Assembly: GCA_964600985.1 (NCBI GenBank)
Contig: CAZRJR010000001.1
Location: 335,431-399,430, forward strand
Source of the DNA: an uncultured Candidatus Saccharibacteria bacterium
GTDB lineage: Bacteria; Patescibacteriota; Saccharimonadia; CAILAD01; JADZBC01
Direction: 5' to 3'
Length of the DNA stretch: 64,000 nt
The stretch's first letter is position 1. Each line of letters starts with the position of its first letter. Shown here piece by piece: positions 3,693 to 46,691 of this stretch. Under the pieces are notes generated by a model. The model was given only the letters and a program-made list of their open reading frames with translations. It was not told the origin of the DNA and did no database searches. The position numbers and the translations under genes are program-made.

Positions 3693-4049
3693 CTACAGGT
3701 ATTGGCCCGGATCGGGCTGCACCTGCTGCTTCACCGTCTCGAGCAGTCCACTGACCACTTCGTCCATGAAGCCGGCGCTGCTGACCCCCGTGGGCGTGAA
3801 GATCCGACGGATCTCATCGGCCAGCTCGGTGAAGCCACCAACGTTGTGGTACGTGGCATCAGTCCAGGCGAGATCCGCCAGGGCCACACCCTTGTCGCCA
3901 ACGTAGATGGACTGACCGTAGTTCTCGCTACGGAACACCTCCTTGGGCAGAGCCAGCGGCTTGGTCTCATCCAGCACGTAGATGATGATGGCCGGCACCT
4001 GATCCCCCACCTTGGGGTACCTGAACTCAATCTGGAACACTGGTTCCAT
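3693..4049 (-). CDS. Hypothetical 118-aa protein, high GC, has its own promoter and terminator
   Basis: SD AAAGGAGCG, then 5 nt, then ATG. Promoter at 4093-4121, terminator hairpin ggccct...agggcc plus T-run at about 3600-3635. Overlapping plus-strand ORFs in the track are rejected. Confidence 0.6.
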   Translation of the reverse strand: MEPVFQIEFRYPKVGDQVPAIIIYVLDETKPLALPKEVFRSENYGQSIYVGDKGVALADLAWTDATYHNVGGFTELADEIRRIFTPTGVSSAGFMDEVVSGLLETVKQQVQPDPGQYL

Positions 4050-13105: not shown

Positions 13106-13771
13106 ATGCACGGCATCCAGCTCGTCGTCGTGACCATTGCGATGATCTTCATGTCCCTCTATGCAATTCGAGAGCTTTACCTGTGGCGAGCTGAGATCAT
13201 CCTCGGTACTCGACTGGGAACCGCCTACGGTGTGTTCTGGGGCCTCGTCCTCACGTACACGGCCGGCAAGTGTTTCCAGAACTTCCAGGTGGGGCCGGAG
13301 TTCTACCGGTACCACTTGAACGACCTTGGCTTTGTGGCCGCCTGGGGCGGCATCATCTTGAACATCGAGATGAAGAGCCTTTGTCGCCGGGAGTTCGTGG
13401 CCTTCAACAAGCGGCCCATCATCACGCTTCGCATGGGACTGAGTGTGGCGCTCATAGCCGCTCTCATGTTCGAGTACATGACCGCGCACGATGATGGCAC
13501 CTTCACCACCCAGGGGCTTCACTACTCCGGCCAGTTGGACTACATGGACATCACCATGTACCTGACCTGTTTCGTTGCCATGTGGCTTCTCGCTCCGTGG
13601 ATGTACGAAGTCAGAGACGCTCCTGCCGTGGCCGAGGTGAGTGTTGCCCCAGCGGCAGCCAAGAGCCGGGCGCAGAAGTTGACCCCACCCACTGGTGTTG
13701 ACCCGAAAGCTATGTCTCGACGGACCACCCCCAAGGGGACCAGGCCCCAGCCAGCGAGGCGCAAGCGGTAG
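13106..13771 (+). CDS. Polytopic membrane protein (about 5-6 TM helices), high GC, unknown function, basic P/R-rich C-terminal tail
   Basis: SD CAGGAG before the ATG. Hydrophobic segments. GC3-rich codons. Confidence 0.6.
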   Translation: MHGIQLVVVTIAMIFMSLYAIRELYLWRAEIILGTRLGTAYGVFWGLVLTYTAGKCFQNFQVGPEFYRYHLNDLGFVAAWGGIILNIEMKSLCRREFVAFNKRPIITLRMGLSVALIAALMFEYMTAHDDGTFTTQGLHYSGQLDYMDITMYLTCFVAMWLLAPWMYEVRDAPAVAEVSVAPAAAKSRAQKLTPPTGVDPKAMSRRTTPKGTRPQPARRKR

Positions 13772-13982: not shown

Positions 13983-15235
13983 CTAAGCCACCAGCAGTTC
14001 CTTGCCGATGTCGGACCGGTACTGCTTGCCGGGGAACTGAATGAGCTCCACAGCGCGGTTGTTGTGCGTCTTGGCCACGTGAGGGTTGGCGTGGCGCGTT
14101 ACCACCGTGAGCACTCGCCCGCCCTTGGTGATCAGTTGCGACTCTTCATCGAGGTCGACACCCCCAAAGAAGATCTCCGTGCCGGGAACCTTCTGAGCCA
14201 CCTCTAGCCCAACGATCACGAACCCGTCACGGATCGCCGCCGAGTCTGGGTAGCCCTCGCTAGACAGCACAGTGGCAATCGTGTACTCCGGCGAGAACTC
14301 CACCGGATCCATGGGGAGGCCTGAGGCAGCCTGCTTGAAGGTCGTAAGCAGGTTGCTGGTAACCCGTGGCAGTACTGCCTGAGCCTCCGGGTCACCCATG
14401 CGGATGTTGTACTCCAGCAGGTAGGGCATGCCATCCACGATCATCAACCCGGCGTAGATGATGCCGCGGTAATCGATGCCACGGCGCTGCAGCTCGGCCA
14501 GGAGCGGCCGAATGGTCAGCTCGGCCCAATCGCTGAGCTTGGACTGATCGCGGGTGCGCGAGTACGCCCCCACGCCGCCGGTGTTGACGTCGGAACCAAG
14601 CGACAAGCGCTTGTAGTCCTGTGCCCCCTCGAGGAGCACATACTCGGTGCCGTTGCAGATGGCGAAGATCGAAACTTCGTACGCCTCGCCCGGCCCCTTG
14701 TTTTCGAGCGGCTGCTCGATCACCAGGGTCTTACCGGCTTCACCGAACTTACCGTCCAGCTTCTGCTGAGCGTCACGCACAGCGGCGTCGTAGTCGTGGG
14801 TCACAAACACACCCTTGCCGGCGGCCAAGCCATCGGTCTTGATCACACAACCGCCGTAGCGGTCCATCATGTAGCGCACTGCCGCCAGCATGTCTGCGGT
14901 ATTGGAAACCACACGGTACTCGGCCGTGCGTATTCCGGCCGCGCTGGCGATGCGCTTCATCCAGACCTTGGAGCCTTCCAGCTGAGCGCCAACAGCACCC
15001 GGACCCAGCACCAGCTTGCCCTGCCGGCGCAGCCGATCTGCTTCTCCGTGAACCAGGGGCTGCTCGGGGCCATACACGAACAGATCCGCCACCACATCGT
15101 CGGCCGACTTCACCCGCTCGAAAGGCATGCCGGGGTTGCCGCCCACCACCACGATATCGGCGTGGCGCCCCAGAACTTTGGCCAGGGCATGCTCGCGCGC
15201 ACCGCCTCCAATTACACAGACTCTCGGCCTGGTCA
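13983..15235 (-). CDS. purD: Phosphoribosylamine--glycine ligase (GAR synthetase, PurD), high GC
   Basis: N-terminal RVCVIGGGAREHALA (ATP-grasp PurD signature) and overall PurD architecture. GTG start at 15235 preferred over TTG 15248. Confidence 0.85.
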
Positions 15236-15374
15236 CTGATCCACTCAAGGTACCTTCTCTTTTCTATAGGGAACTACCATTCTGGCAATTCAACAAACGA
15301 ACGTGCGTACTATACCATAATTACTTTTTGTATCAAAGCATAAGATCTGACCGCCACAGACAAGCTGCTACATA

Positions 15375-16202: not shown

Positions 16203-16261
16203 AATGCTAGTATAGCAAACATACATCAAAACAATACATAGTTGTCTAAAAATGAGGAGAC

Positions 16262-16312
16262 CCCGCCCCACAATAGAGACGGAATCTCACAGGTGGAGCG
16301 GGGCTTGGGTCT
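16262..16312 (-). terminator. Hairpin CCCCGCTCCAC...GTGGGGCGGGG plus T5 downstream of the small membrane gene
   Basis: Inverted repeat read on the reverse complement. Confidence 0.45.
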
Positions 16313-16315
16313 TCT

Positions 16316-16570
16316 TCAGCTGTTGAGCGGCGCCATCTTGCCTCGCTTGATCTGGACGAGGCAGTAGATCGGTCGACCTACCATGTACCAGGGCCAGAGG
16401 AAGATGTGCCTCCCAGCGATCTCGAACCAGAACTTGAGCAGCTCGCTGATCATCTTGGCGTCCTGTGGAAAGTCTCGCGCAAAGTCGTGAAACATCACGA
16501 TGCCCAAGGCGAAAACCAGGGCAGATAGCACGATGCCACCGAGGTAGATGAAGGCCAGGATATCGAGCAT
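16316..16570 (-). CDS. Small (84 aa) two-TM membrane protein, high GC
   Basis: SD AAGGAG 6 nt before the ATG. Promoter TTGACT-17-TATTAT at about 16615-16650. Confidence 0.5.
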   Translation of the reverse strand: MLDILAFIYLGGIVLSALVFALGIVMFHDFARDFPQDAKMISELLKFWFEIAGRHIFLWPWYMVGRPIYCLVQIKRGKMAPLNS

Positions 16571-16699
16571 GAAAGCTCCTTGGGTCGGGCATCAGACGAT
16601 GCAGTGTTTCAAAAAAGACCTATATATAATATAACAAATAGCTATATCAGTCAATGGTCTGCAGCTCTATGAAGAAGTGGAGCCATATCAAGAAACAAG

Positions 16700-16765
16700 T
16701 ACTGAGCTGGCACTCTATACTAGGCGAAGTTCAGGAGTATGCCACTATAAGTGTGGATTAGAACT
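16700..16765. repeat. Conserved ~65-nt element E1 (CTGGCACTCTATACTA...GAAGTT.AGGAG...AGTGT...TTAGAAC), about 75% identical to E2
   Basis: Aligned by eye with 18071-18137. Shared 16-mer ctggcactctatacta. Confidence 0.6.
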
Positions 16766-16773
16766 CTGCAATA

Positions 16774-17367
16774 TTATCGTGTTTCTCTCCACGGGATGAC
16801 AACAAGTTTAGGCCAGACCTTAGTCCATCGTGCTAGCTTTGCATCGTAGACTTTCTCAGGAGCTACCGTCTTATTAGGTCTAATAACCAATCCGAAGAGA
16901 TCATGAAGGCCATAGGGCGCATACACCTTTAGTCTACCTCCTTCCATCCTTACTCCTACACAGCATACTGTAACAGGCCACGAATTTATACCTTCTGCCG
17001 CGCTGCCGTAATATGGTGCCGGAGTTCCATTACGTTCTTCGTACCATGTATAGACACGTGCCTGATTTACTAATTCCATAGAAATGGACAGTTGCGAGAA
17101 CTGTTTGTTTGCAATCTGAGTTATGACATCTTCTGTTTCATGACTTTCATCTTTGTTATAGTAAACCACATCATAATCCTTGATATTAGCTTCTGAGCTA
17201 AAGCCATGAAGATAATTCCATACTGTCTGAGAAATACAGCCACCCGCCAAGTAGTAATCCCCTAGCTTTAGCGCCTCCAAACCTTTAAGAACTTTTACAA
17301 TATTCTCGTTAGTACGAAGAATCCTCGCAAGCTCTGTGGTTTGACTCTCTAGATCGGCATTTTCCAT
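16774..17367 (-). CDS. Nucleotidyltransferase-family protein (DUF925/NTP_transf_6-like), low GC
   Basis: 197 aa. Motifs GDYYLAGGCISQTVWN and YDVVYY resemble the small bacterial NTase family. Moderate certainty. Confidence 0.5.
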   Translation of the reverse strand: MENADLESQTTELARILRTNENIVKVLKGLEALKLGDYYLAGGCISQTVWNYLHGFSSEANIKDYDVVYYNKDESHETEDVITQIANKQFSQLSISMELVNQARVYTWYEERNGTPAPYYGSAAEGINSWPVTVCCVGVRMEGGRLKVYAPYGLHDLFGLVIRPNKTVAPEKVYDAKLARWTKVWPKLVVIPWRETR

Positions 17368-17561
17368 ACTCCAATCCTAGCACAAAACAAAAATGCGACC
17401 CGAGATATTCTCGAATCGCTCAGTCTAGATACTTCCCTGTTATCTACTGCCGACATCCAATGGAAATGTTTGAACTGAAAAAGCGGATCAAGGAATAATC
17501 CCCGAACCGCTATGGGGCCAATGAGTCCAAAATGCCCATTGCACCCCTCCTCTTGACCGAG

Positions 17562-17888
17562 CTAAGCGCGGACGGTTCGGTCGGTGGTGTGCACGGAGCC
17601 ATCGGGCTCGCGGATGCACTCGTTGTTGCCGTTGCGGTACCCCACCGAATGGTCTTCGCCGAACAACTCCATAAGGAGGTTGTGCAGGCGCTCGACGAGC
17701 CGGACCAGATCCCACCCCTCGTCGGGCAGGGTGTACATGAACCCCTTCGTCGTGGGGAACATGCGGCCCTGCCTTCTCTCGTTCAGGGCGCGCTCGATGG
17801 TCTCGCGAGCCTCTGTCGTGCGGAGGGATCTGTCGAGTTCGACTTCGACTTGACGCCCTCCAACCTGGAAATCCAAGTAACTGTGCAT
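17562..17888 (-). CDS. Hypothetical 108-aa protein, high GC
   Basis: ATG at 17888 with SD CAGGAGAG. Promoter TTGATT-17-TATTAT at about 17925-17960. The track start 17924 is rejected. Confidence 0.5.
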   Translation of the reverse strand: MHSYLDFQVGGRQVEVELDRSLRTTEARETIERALNERRQGRMFPTTKGFMYTLPDEGWDLVRLVERLHNLLMELFGEDHSVGYRNGNNECIREPDGSVHTTDRTVRA

Positions 17889-18070
17889 AGTGCTCTCCTG
17901 AATGTCTCGAGTGAGTGAATACATAATACTATAATTATGTTATAAAATCAAGACCTTTCCGGTGGTATTACTGGGAGTATAACTCAACCAGGAAAACCAC
18001 CCACTCGTTGGCTGAGCACCTTTCTTGGTGAACTATATTAAATAGAATTGGAATCCTATAAAGAAGGAGT

Positions 18071-18137
18071 GACTAGACTGGCACTCTATACTAAGTGAAG
18101 TTAAGGAGCTTGTCTCTACGAGTGTAAGTTAGAACCT
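18071..18137. repeat. Conserved element E2, abutting the trpS stop
   Basis: See E1. Confidence 0.6.
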
Positions 18138-19134
18138 ATGGCTGATAGAGCTTCATTGCCTTCCTAACGCCGCCCATCGTTACCTGTACTTCAGCCCTGG
18201 CTTTTGCCGTACCGTCTCTAATAATACTTCTTACGAGCTCAGGCTGGCTCTCGTAGAACTTCCTCTTACTCCGTATAGGCTCTAGGAAGTCATTCAATAC
18301 TTCAATGAGATATTCTTTAGCTTCCATGTCACTAACTCTACCCTTTCTATATAAGAACTTTAGTCTGGTAACTTTATCGGTATCATTACAGAAAGCATCC
18401 AAGTAGGTAAAAACTAGATTGCCTTCCACTTTTCCTGGATCAGTTGTGCGCTTACGGCCAGGATCCGTGTACATTCTCATTACTTGTTTCTTTACTACGG
18501 CGGGTGTATCGGACAAGTAGATTACGTTTCCTAGGCTTTTACTCATCTTAGTCTTGCCATCTATACCAGCTAGGCGCGCAACTCGCCCGACCTTTATCTC
18601 AGGCATCGCAAAGGTCTCACCATAGATATTATTAAAGCGACGTACGACTTCACGAGTTAGCTCAACCATTGGCGCTTGATCGTCACCGGCAGGAACTAAG
18701 TCAGCTTTAAACCCAAGGATGTCTGCAACTTCAGAAAGCGGATAATTCAAGAAACCAACCGGCACATTATTGCCAAAGCCTTTTTGTTTCATTTCGTTTT
18801 TAACAGTAGGATTCCTCTCAAGTCTCGCTAGGCTAACTAAGTTCATGAAGTAAACTGTTAGTTCGGCTAGCTCTGGTATCTGTGACTGTACAAAGATAGT
18901 AGAGTTACTTGGGTCCAAACCAGCCGCCAAGTTGTCGAGGGCTACTTCGTAGACGCTATCCCGCACTCTCTCTGGATTGTCGAAGTTATCAGTCAGTGCC
19001 TGAACATCGGCGAGCATTATGTATGTCTCGTACTGATTCTGTAGCTTGACCCGATTTTCAAGGGTGCCTAAATAGTGACCAAGGTGTAGTTTACCTGTCG
19101 GTCGATCACCCGTTAGTATTCGTTGTTTTCTCAT
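18136..19134 (-). CDS. trpS: Tryptophan--tRNA ligase
   Basis: HIGH-type motif TGKLHLGHYLG and KMSKS-type motif KMSKS. Confidence 0.9.
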   Translation of the reverse strand: MRKQRILTGDRPTGKLHLGHYLGTLENRVKLQNQYETYIMLADVQALTDNFDNPERVRDSVYEVALDNLAAGLDPSNSTIFVQSQIPELAELTVYFMNLVSLARLERNPTVKNEMKQKGFGNNVPVGFLNYPLSEVADILGFKADLVPAGDDQAPMVELTREVVRRFNNIYGETFAMPEIKVGRVARLAGIDGKTKMSKSLGNVIYLSDTPAVVKKQVMRMYTDPGRKRTTDPGKVEGNLVFTYLDAFCNDTDKVTRLKFLYRKGRVSDMEAKEYLIEVLNDFLEPIRSKRKFYESQPELVRSIIRDGTAKARAEVQVTMGGVRKAMKLYQP

Positions 19135-19867: not shown

Positions 19868-19884
19868 AATATTCCTTTGGGGTT

Positions 19885-19914
19885 GGTGCCCGGGAGCGTA
19901 AACTCCCGGGCACC
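19885..19914. other. Perfect 12-bp stem-loop ggtgcccgggag-cgtaaa-ctcccgggcacc in the 5-prime leader of the 19145..19867 gene
   Basis: Inverted repeat read directly. Confidence 0.5.
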
Positions 19915-20435
19915 GTTAATCGGCGTAAGGGCGCCGTACCCATTTATCACCAGTCCATTTGGTTCTCCTTTCGGACTCGTGTGCGGGAAACAAAAATCCC
20001 GCCCTCATCACATACCTAAAAAGATATGTAACAAGGGCGGGATTCTAGATCACGCGGTGCCACCTTGCTTTGTCATGAATCGTACTTTCTTGTACGAAAA
20101 AAGACCTCTTCGCTGACTCAGACTCTACATACCGTAGACGACAACAGCTATCCTATGATTACGGAGGAAACCGGATTACCACTAGCGCAGTAATCACCCT
20201 TCACAAATGTGAAAATCTAGCCCCAACCCTGCCTCACAAATGTGTGCAGGAACTAGATATAGGTTTTGAATTATTGCAAAGAACTTAGGATATTGTATAC
20301 CTATTATGGTTGAGTGTCAAGAGACATTACCATGCAATGTGTATTCGAACCCATTTTAACCTGTAGTGCCAAGTCGTTTGTCACTGTAATAAAGTCCAGA
20401 TCTTTTTTACAGGTTAGAAAACTGTATTTATACTT

Positions 20436-20454
20436 TGGTGATCCCGGCGGGATT
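20436..20454. repeat. 19-nt direct copy of the tRNA-Glu 3-prime end (tggtgatcccggcgggatt), 148 nt beyond the tRNA 3-prime end
   Basis: Exact match to 20603-20621. Confidence 0.7.
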
Positions 20455-20602: not shown

Positions 20603-20678
20603 TGGTGATCCCGGCGGGATTCGAACCCGCGATCTTCTGGATGAGAACCAGATATCCTAACCACTAGACGACGGGACC
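20603..20678 (-). tRNA. tRNA-Glu (anticodon CTC), CCA encoded
   Basis: rc gives a 76-nt cloverleaf: acceptor GGTCCCG/CGGGATC, anticodon stem TCTGG/CCAGA, loop TTCTCAT, T-arm GCGGG-TTCGAAT-CCCGC. Confidence 0.8.
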
Positions 20679-46403: not shown

Positions 46404-46691
46404 ATGAAGTCAGCTTACGTCTACATCCTAGCAAGTGGTCGTAATGGTACGCTCTATACTGGTGTTACAAGCGACATTATTAAGCGCGTATATGAGCACA
46501 AACAGCACTTAGTTGATGGCTTTACTAAGAGATATGACGTAACCAACCTAGTTTGGTTCGAGCGATACGATAATATGACCGACGCTATATCTCGTGAAAA
46601 ACAAATGAAAGAATGGAAACGTAATTGGAAGCTAGCAACTATTGAGGCTGTGAATCCAAGCTGGGAGGATCTCTATACGAGCCTCCTTTAG
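46404..46691 (+). CDS. GIY-YIG nuclease-family small protein (95 aa)
   Basis: YVYILASGRNGTLYTGVT...R...H matches GIY-YIG motifs. Confidence 0.8.
   Translation: MKSAYVYILASGRNGTLYTGVTSDIIKRVYEHKQHLVDGFTKRYDVTNLVWFERYDNMTDAISREKQMKEWKRNWKLATIEAVNPSWEDLYTSLL

What the first reader, a model, noticed from the sequence alone, without database searches (positions are those of the whole stretch)
16262..18150. Two small high-GC single-gene cassettes, each preceded by a conserved ~65-nt element (E1/E2) that abuts the stop codon of the upstream native gene
E1 (16700-16765) and E2 (18071-18137) share the 16-mer CTGGCACTCTATACTA and about 75% identity overall. Each begins within 1-10 nt of the stop of a low-GC gene (DUF925 NTase; trpS). 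About 60-120 nt later comes a TTGAYT-17-TATTAT promoter, an AGGAG SD and a small high-GC ORF (84-aa membrane protein; 108-aa protein). The first cassette ends with a CCCCGC...GCGGGG terminator. The repeated element at cassette boundaries could be a recombination or attachment site, or a shared regulatory/RNA element.
Basis: seen in the sequence. Interest (0 to 1): 0.6.

Follow-up and report, generated by a model that had tools for sequence, protein, structure and literature searches.

The report
Junction repeat of mobile mini-gene cassettes
The two look-alike stretches are copies of a fixed-length 111-base repeat that sits at the joints between small, self-expressed, foreign-looking gene cassettes in a few Saccharibacteria (ultrasmall episymbiotic bacteria). 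It most likely marks where these cassettes are recombined in and out, in an integron-like arrangement I could not find described for this group.

Summary
All features lie on the minus strand. E1 and E2 are two copies of a longer element than reported: a 111-nt core (E1 16655-16765; E2 18026-18136). E2's first base is the last base of the trpS stop codon, and E1 starts 8 nt after the NTase stop.

Related copies turned up in about nine contigs from other Saccharibacteria-like assemblies. There they separate single-gene cassettes, each with its own promoter, ribosome-binding site, high-GC3 orphan ORF and hairpin terminator. In two assemblies the array starts directly at the 3' end of tRNA-Glu. 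All seven full copies are exactly 111 nt with no gaps, although the 5' 48 nt are near-random between genomes.

E matches no Rfam family, shows no RNA or ssDNA fold, is not attC-like and is not significantly tRNA-like. Homology between cassette contexts switches at E's 3' end (TCACCA) next to the -35 hexamer. Cargo differs at each copy, E copies flank cargo as direct repeats, and one cassette is far less diverged at synonymous sites than the native genes.

Best reading, at moderate confidence: E is the junction or attachment repeat of a mobile cassette system. No recombinase was found. I score it as a new variant of a known kind, interest about 0.65.

The parts
18136..19134 (-). trpS, a native low-GC gene. 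Its stop codon TAG (18138-18136) overlaps the first base of E2.
   Evidence: PF00579, E = 1.7e-55. GC3 0.44. Sequence read.
18026..18136 (-). E2: full 111-nt junction repeat, GGTTCTA...TTCACCA.
   Evidence: Gap-free alignment with six other full copies (A7).
17952..18025 (-). 74-nt insert between E2 and the promoter. It is absent from all other copies.
   Evidence: Alignments. No other match in the window or the loci.
17923..17951 (-). Promoter of the 108-aa cassette (TTGATT-17-TATTAT). Homology among the five c108-family cassettes begins exactly at this -35 hexamer.
   Evidence: alignment A10.
17562..17888 (-). c108: 108-aa orphan cargo ORF, GC3 0.83.
   Evidence: Identity by codon position shows purifying selection. 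No Pfam or PHROG family. The AF2 model (pLDDT 78.5) has no fold match.
17428..17465 (-). Probable third, partial E: the 5' module only, of the subtype seen in L087 and L096. It lies between two hairpins downstream of c108.
   Evidence: nhmmer with the profile built without window copies, E = 8.5e-4. Local alignment score 39 against a shuffle maximum of 35.
17395..17419 (-). Terminator-like hairpin that ends the c108 cassette. A weaker one lies at 17488-17505.
   Evidence: Homologous to the hairpins after c108 relatives in L003 and L086.
16774..17367 (-). PF06042 nucleotidyltransferase, low GC, lying between the partial E and E1.
   Evidence: PF06042, E = 1e-46. GC3 0.37.
16655..16765 (-). E1: full 111-nt junction repeat, AGTTCTA...AGACCA. 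It abuts the -35 hexamer.
16626..16654 (-). Promoter of the 84-aa cassette (TTGACT-17-TATTAT).
   Evidence: Homologous to the promoter in L004 (blastn 84% over 417 nt, from promoter to terminator).
16316..16570 (-). c84: 84-aa orphan cargo ORF with a hydrophobic N-terminal helix, GC3 0.81.
16257..16288 (-). Intrinsic terminator of the c84 cassette. It is 80% identical to the terminator of an unrelated cassette in L004.
20603..20678 (-). tRNA-Glu(CUC), 2.5 kb upstream on the same strand. The same tRNA species anchors the cassette arrays in L004 and L087.
20436..20454 (-). Exact 19-nt direct repeat of the tRNA-Glu 3' end, 167 nt downstream of the tRNA. This is an att-type scar and shows the tRNA is an integration site.
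   Evidence: Repeat D4; sequence.

Best explanation
**What it is.** E is the junction (attachment-type) repeat of a family of small mobile expression cassettes in a narrow clade of Saccharibacteria.

A cassette consists of:
- a strong sigma-70-type promoter,
- a short 5' UTR with a ribosome-binding site,
- one ORF, usually an orphan with very high GC3 and sometimes a toxin-antitoxin pair,
- a GC-rich hairpin terminator.

E is a 111-nt, low-GC, unstructured DNA segment of fixed length that lies between cassettes. Its 3' end (...TCACCA) abuts the next cassette's -35 hexamer and occupies the same position as the 3' end of tRNA-Glu (...GATCACCA), where arrays begin.

**How it works (inferred).** Cassettes are gained, lost and moved by recombination at or near this TCACCA junction. 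The agent is probably a site-specific recombinase acting in trans. E would serve as the long arm of the site, and this could account for its fixed length and for a 5' module that is specific to each genome.

In the window, one such event placed E2 and c108 directly behind the trpS stop codon. E1 and c84 lie behind the NTase gene.

**Shown.** The repeat family, its fixed length, its position at cassette joints, the variable cargo, the position of the homology switch, and the more recent exchange of a cassette.

**Inferred.** That recombination happens at E, and which enzyme carries it out.
For: 1. **Position in arrays.** E copies sit between cassettes in independent assemblies.
   - L004: tRNA-Glu end, c124, E, c125, E, c84, then further cassettes.
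   - L087: tRNA-Glu end, c207, partial E, c115, E, c117, half E, c108 relative, c123.
   - L096.
2. **Direct repeats around cargo.**
   - In L112 a partial and a full E flank one inverted high-GC ORF between low-GC genes.
   - In L106 two 3'-module copies flank an HTH_17 + PIN_3 pair that follows a PemK toxin gene.
3. **Homology switch point.**
   - In L004 and L087 the sequence 3' of the tRNA's ...TCACCA matches the sequence 3' of E's ...TCACCA. The sequences 5' of it differ: tRNA on one side, E on the other.
   - Homology among the five c108-family cassettes starts exactly at the -35 hexamer.
4. **Fixed length.** The seven full copies are all 111 nt with zero gap characters. Identity is 50-86% overall and only 29-46% in the 5' 48 nt between the window type and the other type.
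5. **Genome-specific, not cargo-specific.** c84 carries a window-type E in the window and an L004-type E in L004.
6. **Mobility.**
   - The c108 family occurs in five different upstream contexts.
   - Identity at synonymous-type sites for c108, window vs L003, is 0.72. For four neighbouring native genes of the same two genomes it is 0.31-0.39.
   - E is absent after trpS in the relatives examined, at 67-78% identity.
7. **Integration at the tRNA.** tRNA-Glu in the window carries a 19-nt att-type direct repeat.
Against: - No recombinase gene was found in the 64 kb window or in any fetched locus.
- There is no empty-site versus occupied-site pair at nucleotide resolution, and no circular or excised form.
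- Copies are few: two to three per contig and about nine contigs in total, despite a scan of 241 million metagenome records.
- Several copies are truncated or separated from the promoter, and many high-GC cassettes, including others in this window, have no E at all.
- E shows no internal direct or inverted repeats beyond chance that could serve as recombinase binding sites.
- Tandem duplication plus RecA-dependent exchange could produce the same direct-repeat layout.
Confidence: 0.5

Rival explanations
1. E has no dedicated enzyme. It is a repeated homology block. Together with the shared promoter and terminator modules, it lets RecA-dependent recombination swap, duplicate or delete cassettes after natural transformation with DNA from related cells.
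For: - Saccharibacteria are naturally competent (PMC10633639 and PMC10187176, found).
- E copies within one genome resemble each other in the 5' module, which looks like concerted evolution or gene conversion.
- Terminators of unrelated cassettes are also homologous: 80% over 59 nt.
- No recombinase was found.
Against: - Homology arms have no need for a fixed length. Zero indels across 50-86% identical copies, including a near-random 48-nt module, is hard to explain this way.
- The sharp homology switch at TCACCA beside the -35 hexamer, and the equivalence with the tRNA-Glu 3' end, fit a defined crossover better.
- E1 and E2 are only 67% identical, which makes them poor substrates for homologous recombination.
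Confidence: 0.22
2. E is the upstream regulatory region of the cassette promoters. It would hold binding sites for an activator, repressor or silencer at a fixed phase from the -35 hexamer, and it is copied along with each cassette.
For: - In most full copies E abuts the -35 hexamer directly.
- The fixed length would keep binding sites in phase with the promoter.
- The most conserved block, TCTTGATTTGGTTCCAATTC, lies about 19-38 nt upstream of the -35 hexamer (my count on A7).
Against: - E2 is separated from its promoter by a 74-nt insert.
- The c108 relative in L087 keeps only the 5' half of E, and the relative in L086 has none, yet their promoters are intact.
- In L112 one copy precedes no gene and the other precedes a native EamA gene without the cassette promoter.
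- Other cassettes in the window with the same type of promoter lack E.
Confidence: 0.15
3. E copies are decayed 3' parts of tRNA-Glu, the ordinary att scars left by successive integrations of conventional integrase-bearing elements at the tRNA. They would have no function of their own.
For: - Arrays begin at tRNA-Glu.
- E ends in TCACCA, as the tRNA does, and carries GGTTC.AAT, which resembles the T-loop.
- E1 begins GTTCTAATCCA, against GTTCTCATCCA in the anticodon arm.
- Islands built this way, with scattered partial tRNAs, are known from tycheposons (10.1101/2020.12.28.424599).
Against: - Local alignment of seven E copies against two tRNA-Glu genes is no better than against shuffled sequence (p = 0.09 to 0.99).
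- E is 111 nt, whereas the tRNA from anticodon loop to 3' end is 46-48 nt.
- A scar would decay with indels, yet E has none.
- The real tRNA scar in the window is a clean 19-nt copy that looks nothing like E.
Confidence: 0.06
4. E is a structured RNA: a 3' UTR element of the upstream gene, a leader of the downstream gene, or a small RNA.
For: In the window no terminator separates trpS or the NTase gene from E, so E is probably transcribed there.
Against: - No Rfam match even at E = 10.
- Single-sequence RNA folds give z-scores of -0.86 to +1.08.
- The consensus fold of seven copies is -3.1 kcal/mol, with one compensatory pair out of nine. The opposite strand is equally weak.
- In the arrays E lies after the previous cassette's terminator and before the next promoter.
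Confidence: 0.04

Closest known systems
Chromosomal integrons and superintegrons (cassette arrays separated by attC sites, such as the ~123-nt Vibrio cholerae repeats). The comparison rests on established knowledge of integrons, not on a test against an integron here.
   Same: - Arrays of same-strand single-gene cassettes separated by a repeat of about 110-125 nt.
- Cargo is mostly orphan genes plus toxin-antitoxin pairs.
- The repeats are more alike within a genome than between genomes.
- There is a fixed entry point at one end of the array: attI in integrons, the tRNA-Glu 3' end here.
   Different: - E has no attC-type imperfect palindrome. As ssDNA it folds no better than shuffled sequence on either strand.
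- Every cassette brings its own promoter and terminator, whereas integron cassettes are usually promoterless.
- No IntI-type integrase or Pc/attI platform is present in the window (a rough screen).
- The anchor is a tRNA gene.
tRNA-anchored genomic islands built by successive integration, such as tycheposons of Prochlorococcus (10.1101/2020.12.28.424599).
   Same: - The island grows downstream of a tRNA gene, with new elements pushing older ones further in.
- Repeated att motifs lie between cargo.
- The host has a small, streamlined genome and few classical mobile elements.
   Different: - The repeats there are partial tRNAs. E is not significantly tRNA-like and is more than twice as long as the tRNA's 3' part.
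- The units here are 0.4-0.8 kb single genes with no integrase or replication module.
- E copies also occur away from any tRNA: after trpS in the window, and between native genes in L112.
Phage morons (promoter + gene + terminator units inserted between phage genes).
   Same: The cassette anatomy is the same: own promoter, one small ORF, own terminator. Base composition differs from the surroundings, and insertion is tight against the neighbouring gene's stop codon.
   Different: - The context is a cellular chromosome (trpS, RNR, tRNA-Glu), not a prophage.
- There are no phage matches for the cargo and no E copies in viral contigs.
- Morons have no shared junction repeat.
Intergenic repeat families that carry promoters, such as Neisseria Correia elements and ERIC/IRU (known from the literature).
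   Same: A 100-150 nt repeat in intergenic DNA, next to or carrying an outward-facing promoter.
   Different: - E has no terminal inverted repeats and no dyad symmetry.
- The copy number is very low.
- E is always co-oriented with the cassettes and tied to variable cargo, not scattered among core genes.

Membership tests
Integron attC site | An imperfect inverted repeat (R''-L''/L'-R') whose single strand folds into a stable hairpin. | tested here: not met
   ssDNA folds of four E copies on both strands give z-scores of -0.06 to +1.11 against shuffles, with MFE of only -5 to -12 kcal/mol. Inverted 8-mers are no more frequent than chance in six of seven copies; L112f has 10 against 2.1 expected.
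Integron platform | An intI tyrosine recombinase gene with attI and Pc next to the array. | tested here: inconclusive
Only 64 kb of a contig of at least 487 kb is visible.
Integron cassette | Cassettes are generally promoterless and expressed from Pc. | tested here: not met
   Both window cassettes have TTGAyT-17-TATTAT promoters. The same holds in L004, L087 and L096.
tRNA-derived att repeat (partial tRNA) | The repeat is a recognisable copy of the 3' part of the target tRNA. | tested here: not met
   Smith-Waterman of seven E copies against two tRNA-Glu genes gives p = 0.09 to 0.99 against shuffles. Only the final TCACCA and a GGTTC.AAT motif are shared.
tRNA-anchored integrative island | The array starts at a tRNA gene's 3' end, and the same flank is repeated at the internal junctions. 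| tested here: met
   In L004 and L087 the first cassette follows the tRNA-Glu ...GATCACCA. The flank after the tRNA matches the flank after E's ...TCACCA. In the window the tRNA-Glu is 2.5 kb upstream and has its own 19-nt scar.
Any Rfam RNA family | A covariance-model match at or near the gathering score. | tested here: not met
   No hit on E at gathering score or at E up to 10.
MITE or Correia-type repeat | Terminal inverted repeats and a target-site duplication. | tested here: not met
   No terminal inverted repeats. The ends are GGTTCTA and TCACCA in all copies.
Phage moron | A promoter-gene-terminator unit residing in a phage or prophage genome. | tested here: not met
   The unit anatomy is met. 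The neighbours are cellular genes, the cargo has no phage tblastn or PHROG hits, and the viral contigs hold no true E copies.

The most novel reading that the evidence does not exclude
Some Saccharibacteria possess a gene-capture and gene-shuffling system that my searches did not find described. It would play the role of an integron but work through a different site chemistry.
- The site is an unstructured, fixed-length 111-nt double-stranded DNA element whose crossover core mimics the 3' end of tRNA-Glu.
- ORFs are packaged as standard, self-sufficient expression units with a shared low-GC promoter and terminator scaffold.
- The ORFs keep an actinobacterium-like GC3 of 0.75-0.92 over deep divergence. 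This suggests a steady supply from, or life in, a high-GC gene pool such as the Actinobacteria hosts of these epibionts or their mobile elements.
Probability: 0.25. Interest if true: 0.85.

Novelty: new variant of a known kind. Interest (0 to 1): 0.65.

Why it matters
Saccharibacteria and other CPR bacteria have tiny genomes and few recognised mobile elements. They live attached to Actinobacteria, and how they acquire and exchange accessory genes is largely unknown.

A cassette array with its own junction repeat would give a concrete, testable route for gene flux in this group. It would also explain islands of orphan genes with foreign composition.

It would supply ready-made parts for the new genetic systems in Saccharibacteria: strong promoters, terminators and a candidate integration site.

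If a dedicated recombinase exists, the system would be an integron-like mechanism that does not rely on folded attC hairpins.

The steady contrast between high-GC3 ORFs and their low-GC scaffold is an unexplained evolutionary puzzle in its own right.

Tried and rejected
- **Known RNA families.** Rfam gave nothing at gathering score or at permissive thresholds on the region.
- **RNA structure.** I folded single sequences on both strands and alignments of four and seven copies. There is no fold and no covariation.
- **attC-like ssDNA hairpin.** Rejected.
- **Derivation from tRNA-Glu.** Not significant.
- **Internal direct or inverted repeats as candidate protein-binding sites.** No more frequent than chance.
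- **Coding potential of E.** Stop codons occur in all frames on the cassette strand. The short opposite-strand ORFs are not conserved (read).
- **More copies.**
  - In the window there are only E1, E2 and one partial copy.
  - The 80 GTDB trpS loci hold none.
  - The metagenome scan returned 21 loci, of which only L096, L112, L110 and L106 are true copies.
  - The viral contigs hold none.
- **Cargo function.**
  - Pfam and PHROGs gave nothing above curated cut-offs.
  - tblastn against phages gave nothing.
  - An exhaustive HMMER search for c108 found only three further relatives, all in similar mini-cassettes.
  - The AF2 model of c108 (pLDDT 78.5) has no PDB fold match with E below 0.1.
- **Linked recombinase.** None was found with a XerD query.
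- **Source genome.** No name or accession could be retrieved. Look-up of P0001 found no contig on record.
- **Literature.** I found no description of such arrays in Saccharibacteria or Patescibacteria.
Full report
**1. What is in the window**

All genes between 13.9 and 19.9 kb lie on the minus strand. Read on that strand, the order is as follows.

| Feature | Coordinates | Evidence |
|---|---|---|
| tRNA-Glu(CUC) | 20678-20603 | |
| Exact 19-nt copy of the tRNA 3' end | 20454-20436 | |
| Divergent T-box-like leader | 20213-20030 | |
| AstE-like gene | 19867-19145 | |
| trpS | 19134-18136 | |
| E2 | 18136-18026 | |
| 74-nt insert | 18025-17952 | |
| Promoter TTGATT-17-TATTAT | 17951-17923 | |
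| 108-aa ORF c108 | 17888-17562 | |
| Two hairpins, with a partial E between them (17465-17428) | 17505-17395 | |
| PF06042 nucleotidyltransferase | 17367-16774 | |
| E1 | 16765-16655 | |
| Promoter TTGACT-17-TATTAT | 16654-16626 | |
| 84-aa ORF c84 | 16570-16316 | |
| Terminator | 16288-16257 | |
| Pilin-like gene | 16271-15375 | |
| High-GC purD | 15248-13983 | |

- The element is a 111-nt core, not about 65 nt.
- E2's first base is the last base of the trpS stop codon. E1 begins 8 nt after the NTase stop and ends flush against the -35 hexamer.

The cargo ORFs have GC3 of 0.81-0.83, against 0.37-0.44 for the three native neighbours. E itself is 38-44% GC. Two Logan assemblies from other sequencing runs reproduce the whole stretch at 100% identity, so it is not a chimeric assembly.

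**2. Is the repeat more than chance?**

- The 16-mer is unique to the two sites, and 92 nt align without gaps at 73% identity.
- A degenerate pattern for the 3' module hits only E1 and E2, with 0.00 matches expected in shuffles.
- The non-circular test is the strongest. A profile built only from copies found in other assemblies returns E1, the partial copy at 17465-17428 and E2 as the three best hits in the 64 kb window.

**3. Where else it occurs**

*The organism.* It is a Saccharibacterium.
- The closest trpS genes are at 72-78% identity in Candidatus Saccharibacteria MAGs.
- The closest locus is L003, with RNR at 86% amino-acid identity.

*The cargo proteins.* They are almost unique.
- Among 5.8 billion proteins, each has the source copy and one relative at about 80% identity.
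- An exhaustive HMMER search added three more distant c108 relatives.

*The contigs that encode these relatives*, together with a metagenome scan for the E 3' module, gave the decisive picture:

- **L004/L005.** The 3' end of a tRNA-Glu (...GGGATCACCA) is followed at once by a promoter and a 124-aa ORF with terminator. Then come E, promoter, a 125-aa ORF and terminator; then E, promoter and the c84 relative with terminator; then a further cassette without E.
- **L087/L088.** After tRNA-Glu(UUC) come five same-strand orphan cassettes. They are separated by a partial E, a full E, a 5'-half E (in front of the c108 relative) and one joint with no E.
- **L096.** A full E lies between two cassettes.
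- **L112.** A partial E and a full E flank a single, inverted, high-GC ORF between a low-GC gene and an EamA transporter gene.
- **L106.** Two copies of the 3' module flank an HTH_17 + PIN_3 pair that follows a PemK toxin gene. The cargo here is low-GC.
- **L110 and L090.** Each carries a 3' remnant upstream of a cassette.

No true copy exists in viral contigs. None lies downstream of trpS in the relatives examined.

**4. Properties of E**

- The seven full copies align from GGTTCTA to ACCA over exactly 111 columns, with no gap character.
- Overall identity is 50-86%.
- The 3' 56 nt form a family-wide module at 57-93% identity. Its most conserved block is TCTTGATTTGGTTCCAATTC, followed 16 nt later by CCA.
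- The 48 nt after GGTTCTA are 75% identical between E1 and E2, but only 29-46% identical to the other genomes' copies. That is close to random, yet the length is exactly the same.
- E types follow the genome, not the cargo. The orthologous c84 cassettes (84% nucleotide identity from -35 to terminator) sit behind a window-type E in the window and an L004-type E in L004.
- E matches no Rfam family.
- It has no stable RNA fold on either strand, and alignment folding shows no covariation.
- As ssDNA it folds no better than shuffled sequence.
- It contains no repeats beyond chance and is not significantly similar to tRNA-Glu.

**5. Where the joints are**

In L004 and L087 the sequence following the tRNA's ...TCACCA is homologous to the sequence following E's ...TCACCA. 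In L087 about 42 of 50 nt match. The sequences upstream of that point, tRNA on one side and E on the other, are unrelated.

The five c108-family cassettes share a homologous promoter and 5' UTR that starts exactly at the -35 hexamer. Upstream of it they carry five different things:
- E2 plus an insert,
- a spacer with only a weak match to E,
- an E 3' remnant,
- no recognisable E,
- an E 5' half.

So the unit that travels is -35 through terminator, and E's 3' end is the seam.

In L112 the two flanking copies carry different alleles of the 12 nt before TTCACCA, one as in L096 and one as in L004/L087. Both are followed by the same TGTCT.TTATG. This is the pattern expected after a crossover near TCACCA between two different sites.

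**6. Mobility**

Between the window and L003, four neighbouring native genes are saturated at synonymous-type sites (identity 0.31-0.39). For c108 the figure is 0.72, while roughly 0.37 would be expected by chance at its GC3. The cassette was therefore exchanged, or acquired from a common pool, long after the two genomes separated.

Identity by codon position (second > first > third) shows that both cargo ORFs are real genes under selection.

**7. Interpretation**

The most economical reading is that E is the junction repeat of a cassette system. Entry is at the tRNA-Glu 3' end or at resident E copies, with recombination near TCACCA. E acts as a spacing-constrained arm of the site.

In function this works like an integron or a tRNA-anchored island. 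E is not a member of either family:
- The attC hairpin test fails.
- The partial-tRNA test fails.
- The cassettes carry their own promoters.
- No integrase is visible.

I give this reading about 0.5.

The main rival is enzyme-free homologous exchange after natural transformation. Competence is documented for Saccharibacteria (PMC10633639, PMC10187176). This rival explains the concerted evolution but not the indel-free length or the sharp seam.

A promoter-upstream regulatory role explains the fixed phase. It is contradicted by the copies that are truncated, displaced or lack a promoter.

The RNA reading and the tRNA-scar reading are poorly supported.

**8. What remains unexplained**

The cassette ORFs keep GC3 at 0.75-0.92, while their homologous promoter, UTR, terminator tails and E stay low-GC. 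In the c108 family this has held across 50-80% protein identity; one member (L087) has dropped to GC3 0.53. A single recent transfer from a high-GC donor does not explain this.

Saccharibacteria grow on Actinobacteria (PMC10633639), so a host-linked gene pool is an obvious candidate. No homologue outside the cassettes was found.

**9. Limits**

- Only 64 kb of the source genome is visible.
- Most related contigs are 1-9 kb.
- The scans of public collections needed exact matches to a degenerate pattern, so diverged copies will have been missed.
- The recombinase screen was crude.

Noticed in passing
window 20030-20213 (-), within the conserved stretch 19872-20309: There is a divergent T-box-like leader upstream of the AstE-like/trpS pair. 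It matches RF00230 at 27.5 bits, far below the gathering score of 93, but the GGUGGCACCGCG box and a following terminator hairpin (19995-20044) are present. The 444-nt non-coding stretch is 87-88% identical to L011 and L012, whose AstE and trpS proteins are only 60-67% identical.
   Followed up: partly
window 20436-20454 vs 20603-20621: An exact 19-nt direct repeat of the tRNA-Glu 3' end (AATCCCGCCGGGATCACCA) lies 167 nt downstream of the tRNA. This is the signature of a past integrase-mediated insertion, of which only about 148 nt remain.
   Followed up: partly
window 13106-13771 (+), 3693-4049 (-), 53.8-55.8 kb, 13983-15248 (-): The window holds further high-GC units without E.
- A 221-aa multi-pass membrane ORF has a TTGACA-17-TATAAT promoter and a hairpin with a TTTTCGTTTAAT tail.
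- A 118-aa ORF is homologous (31% identity) to a cassette ORF in L003.
- A 2-kb block at 61-68% GC has ambiguous ORFs and no Pfam hit.
- purD has GC3 of 0.78.
   Followed up: partly
cassette ends in the window, L003, L004, L086, L087 and L096: Terminators of unrelated cassettes share a tail motif, roughly TYTCGYWTTTWAT. In one case the whole hairpin is shared: window c84 against L004 c125, 80% over 59 nt. The scaffold around the ORFs is thus conserved on both sides.
   Followed up: partly
L003 10400-10890: A strong promoter (TTGACA-17-TATTAT) is followed by about 400 nt of GC-rich sequence with no convincing ORF, then a terminator. There is no Rfam match even at E = 1. It may be an undescribed non-coding RNA or a decayed cassette.
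   Followed up: partly
L106 25-1095: A PemK/MazF toxin gene is followed by an HTH_17 + PIN_3 pair. The units are separated by E 3' modules. This looks like an array of toxin-antitoxin cassettes in a low-GC relative.
   Followed up: yes
window 17952-18025 (-): A 74-nt insert separates E2 from its promoter and is bounded by the 7-nt direct repeat GAAAGGT. It has no other copy in the window or in any fetched locus.
   Followed up: partly
window 46404-46691 (+): A stand-alone 95-aa GIY-YIG domain protein (PF01541, E = 3e-15).
   Followed up: no
window 17532-17918 (+): The gene caller behind the Logan records annotated the 128-aa antisense shadow ORF instead of c108. The conserved 108-aa family and the identity pattern by codon position show that the minus-strand ORF is the real gene.
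   Followed up: yes
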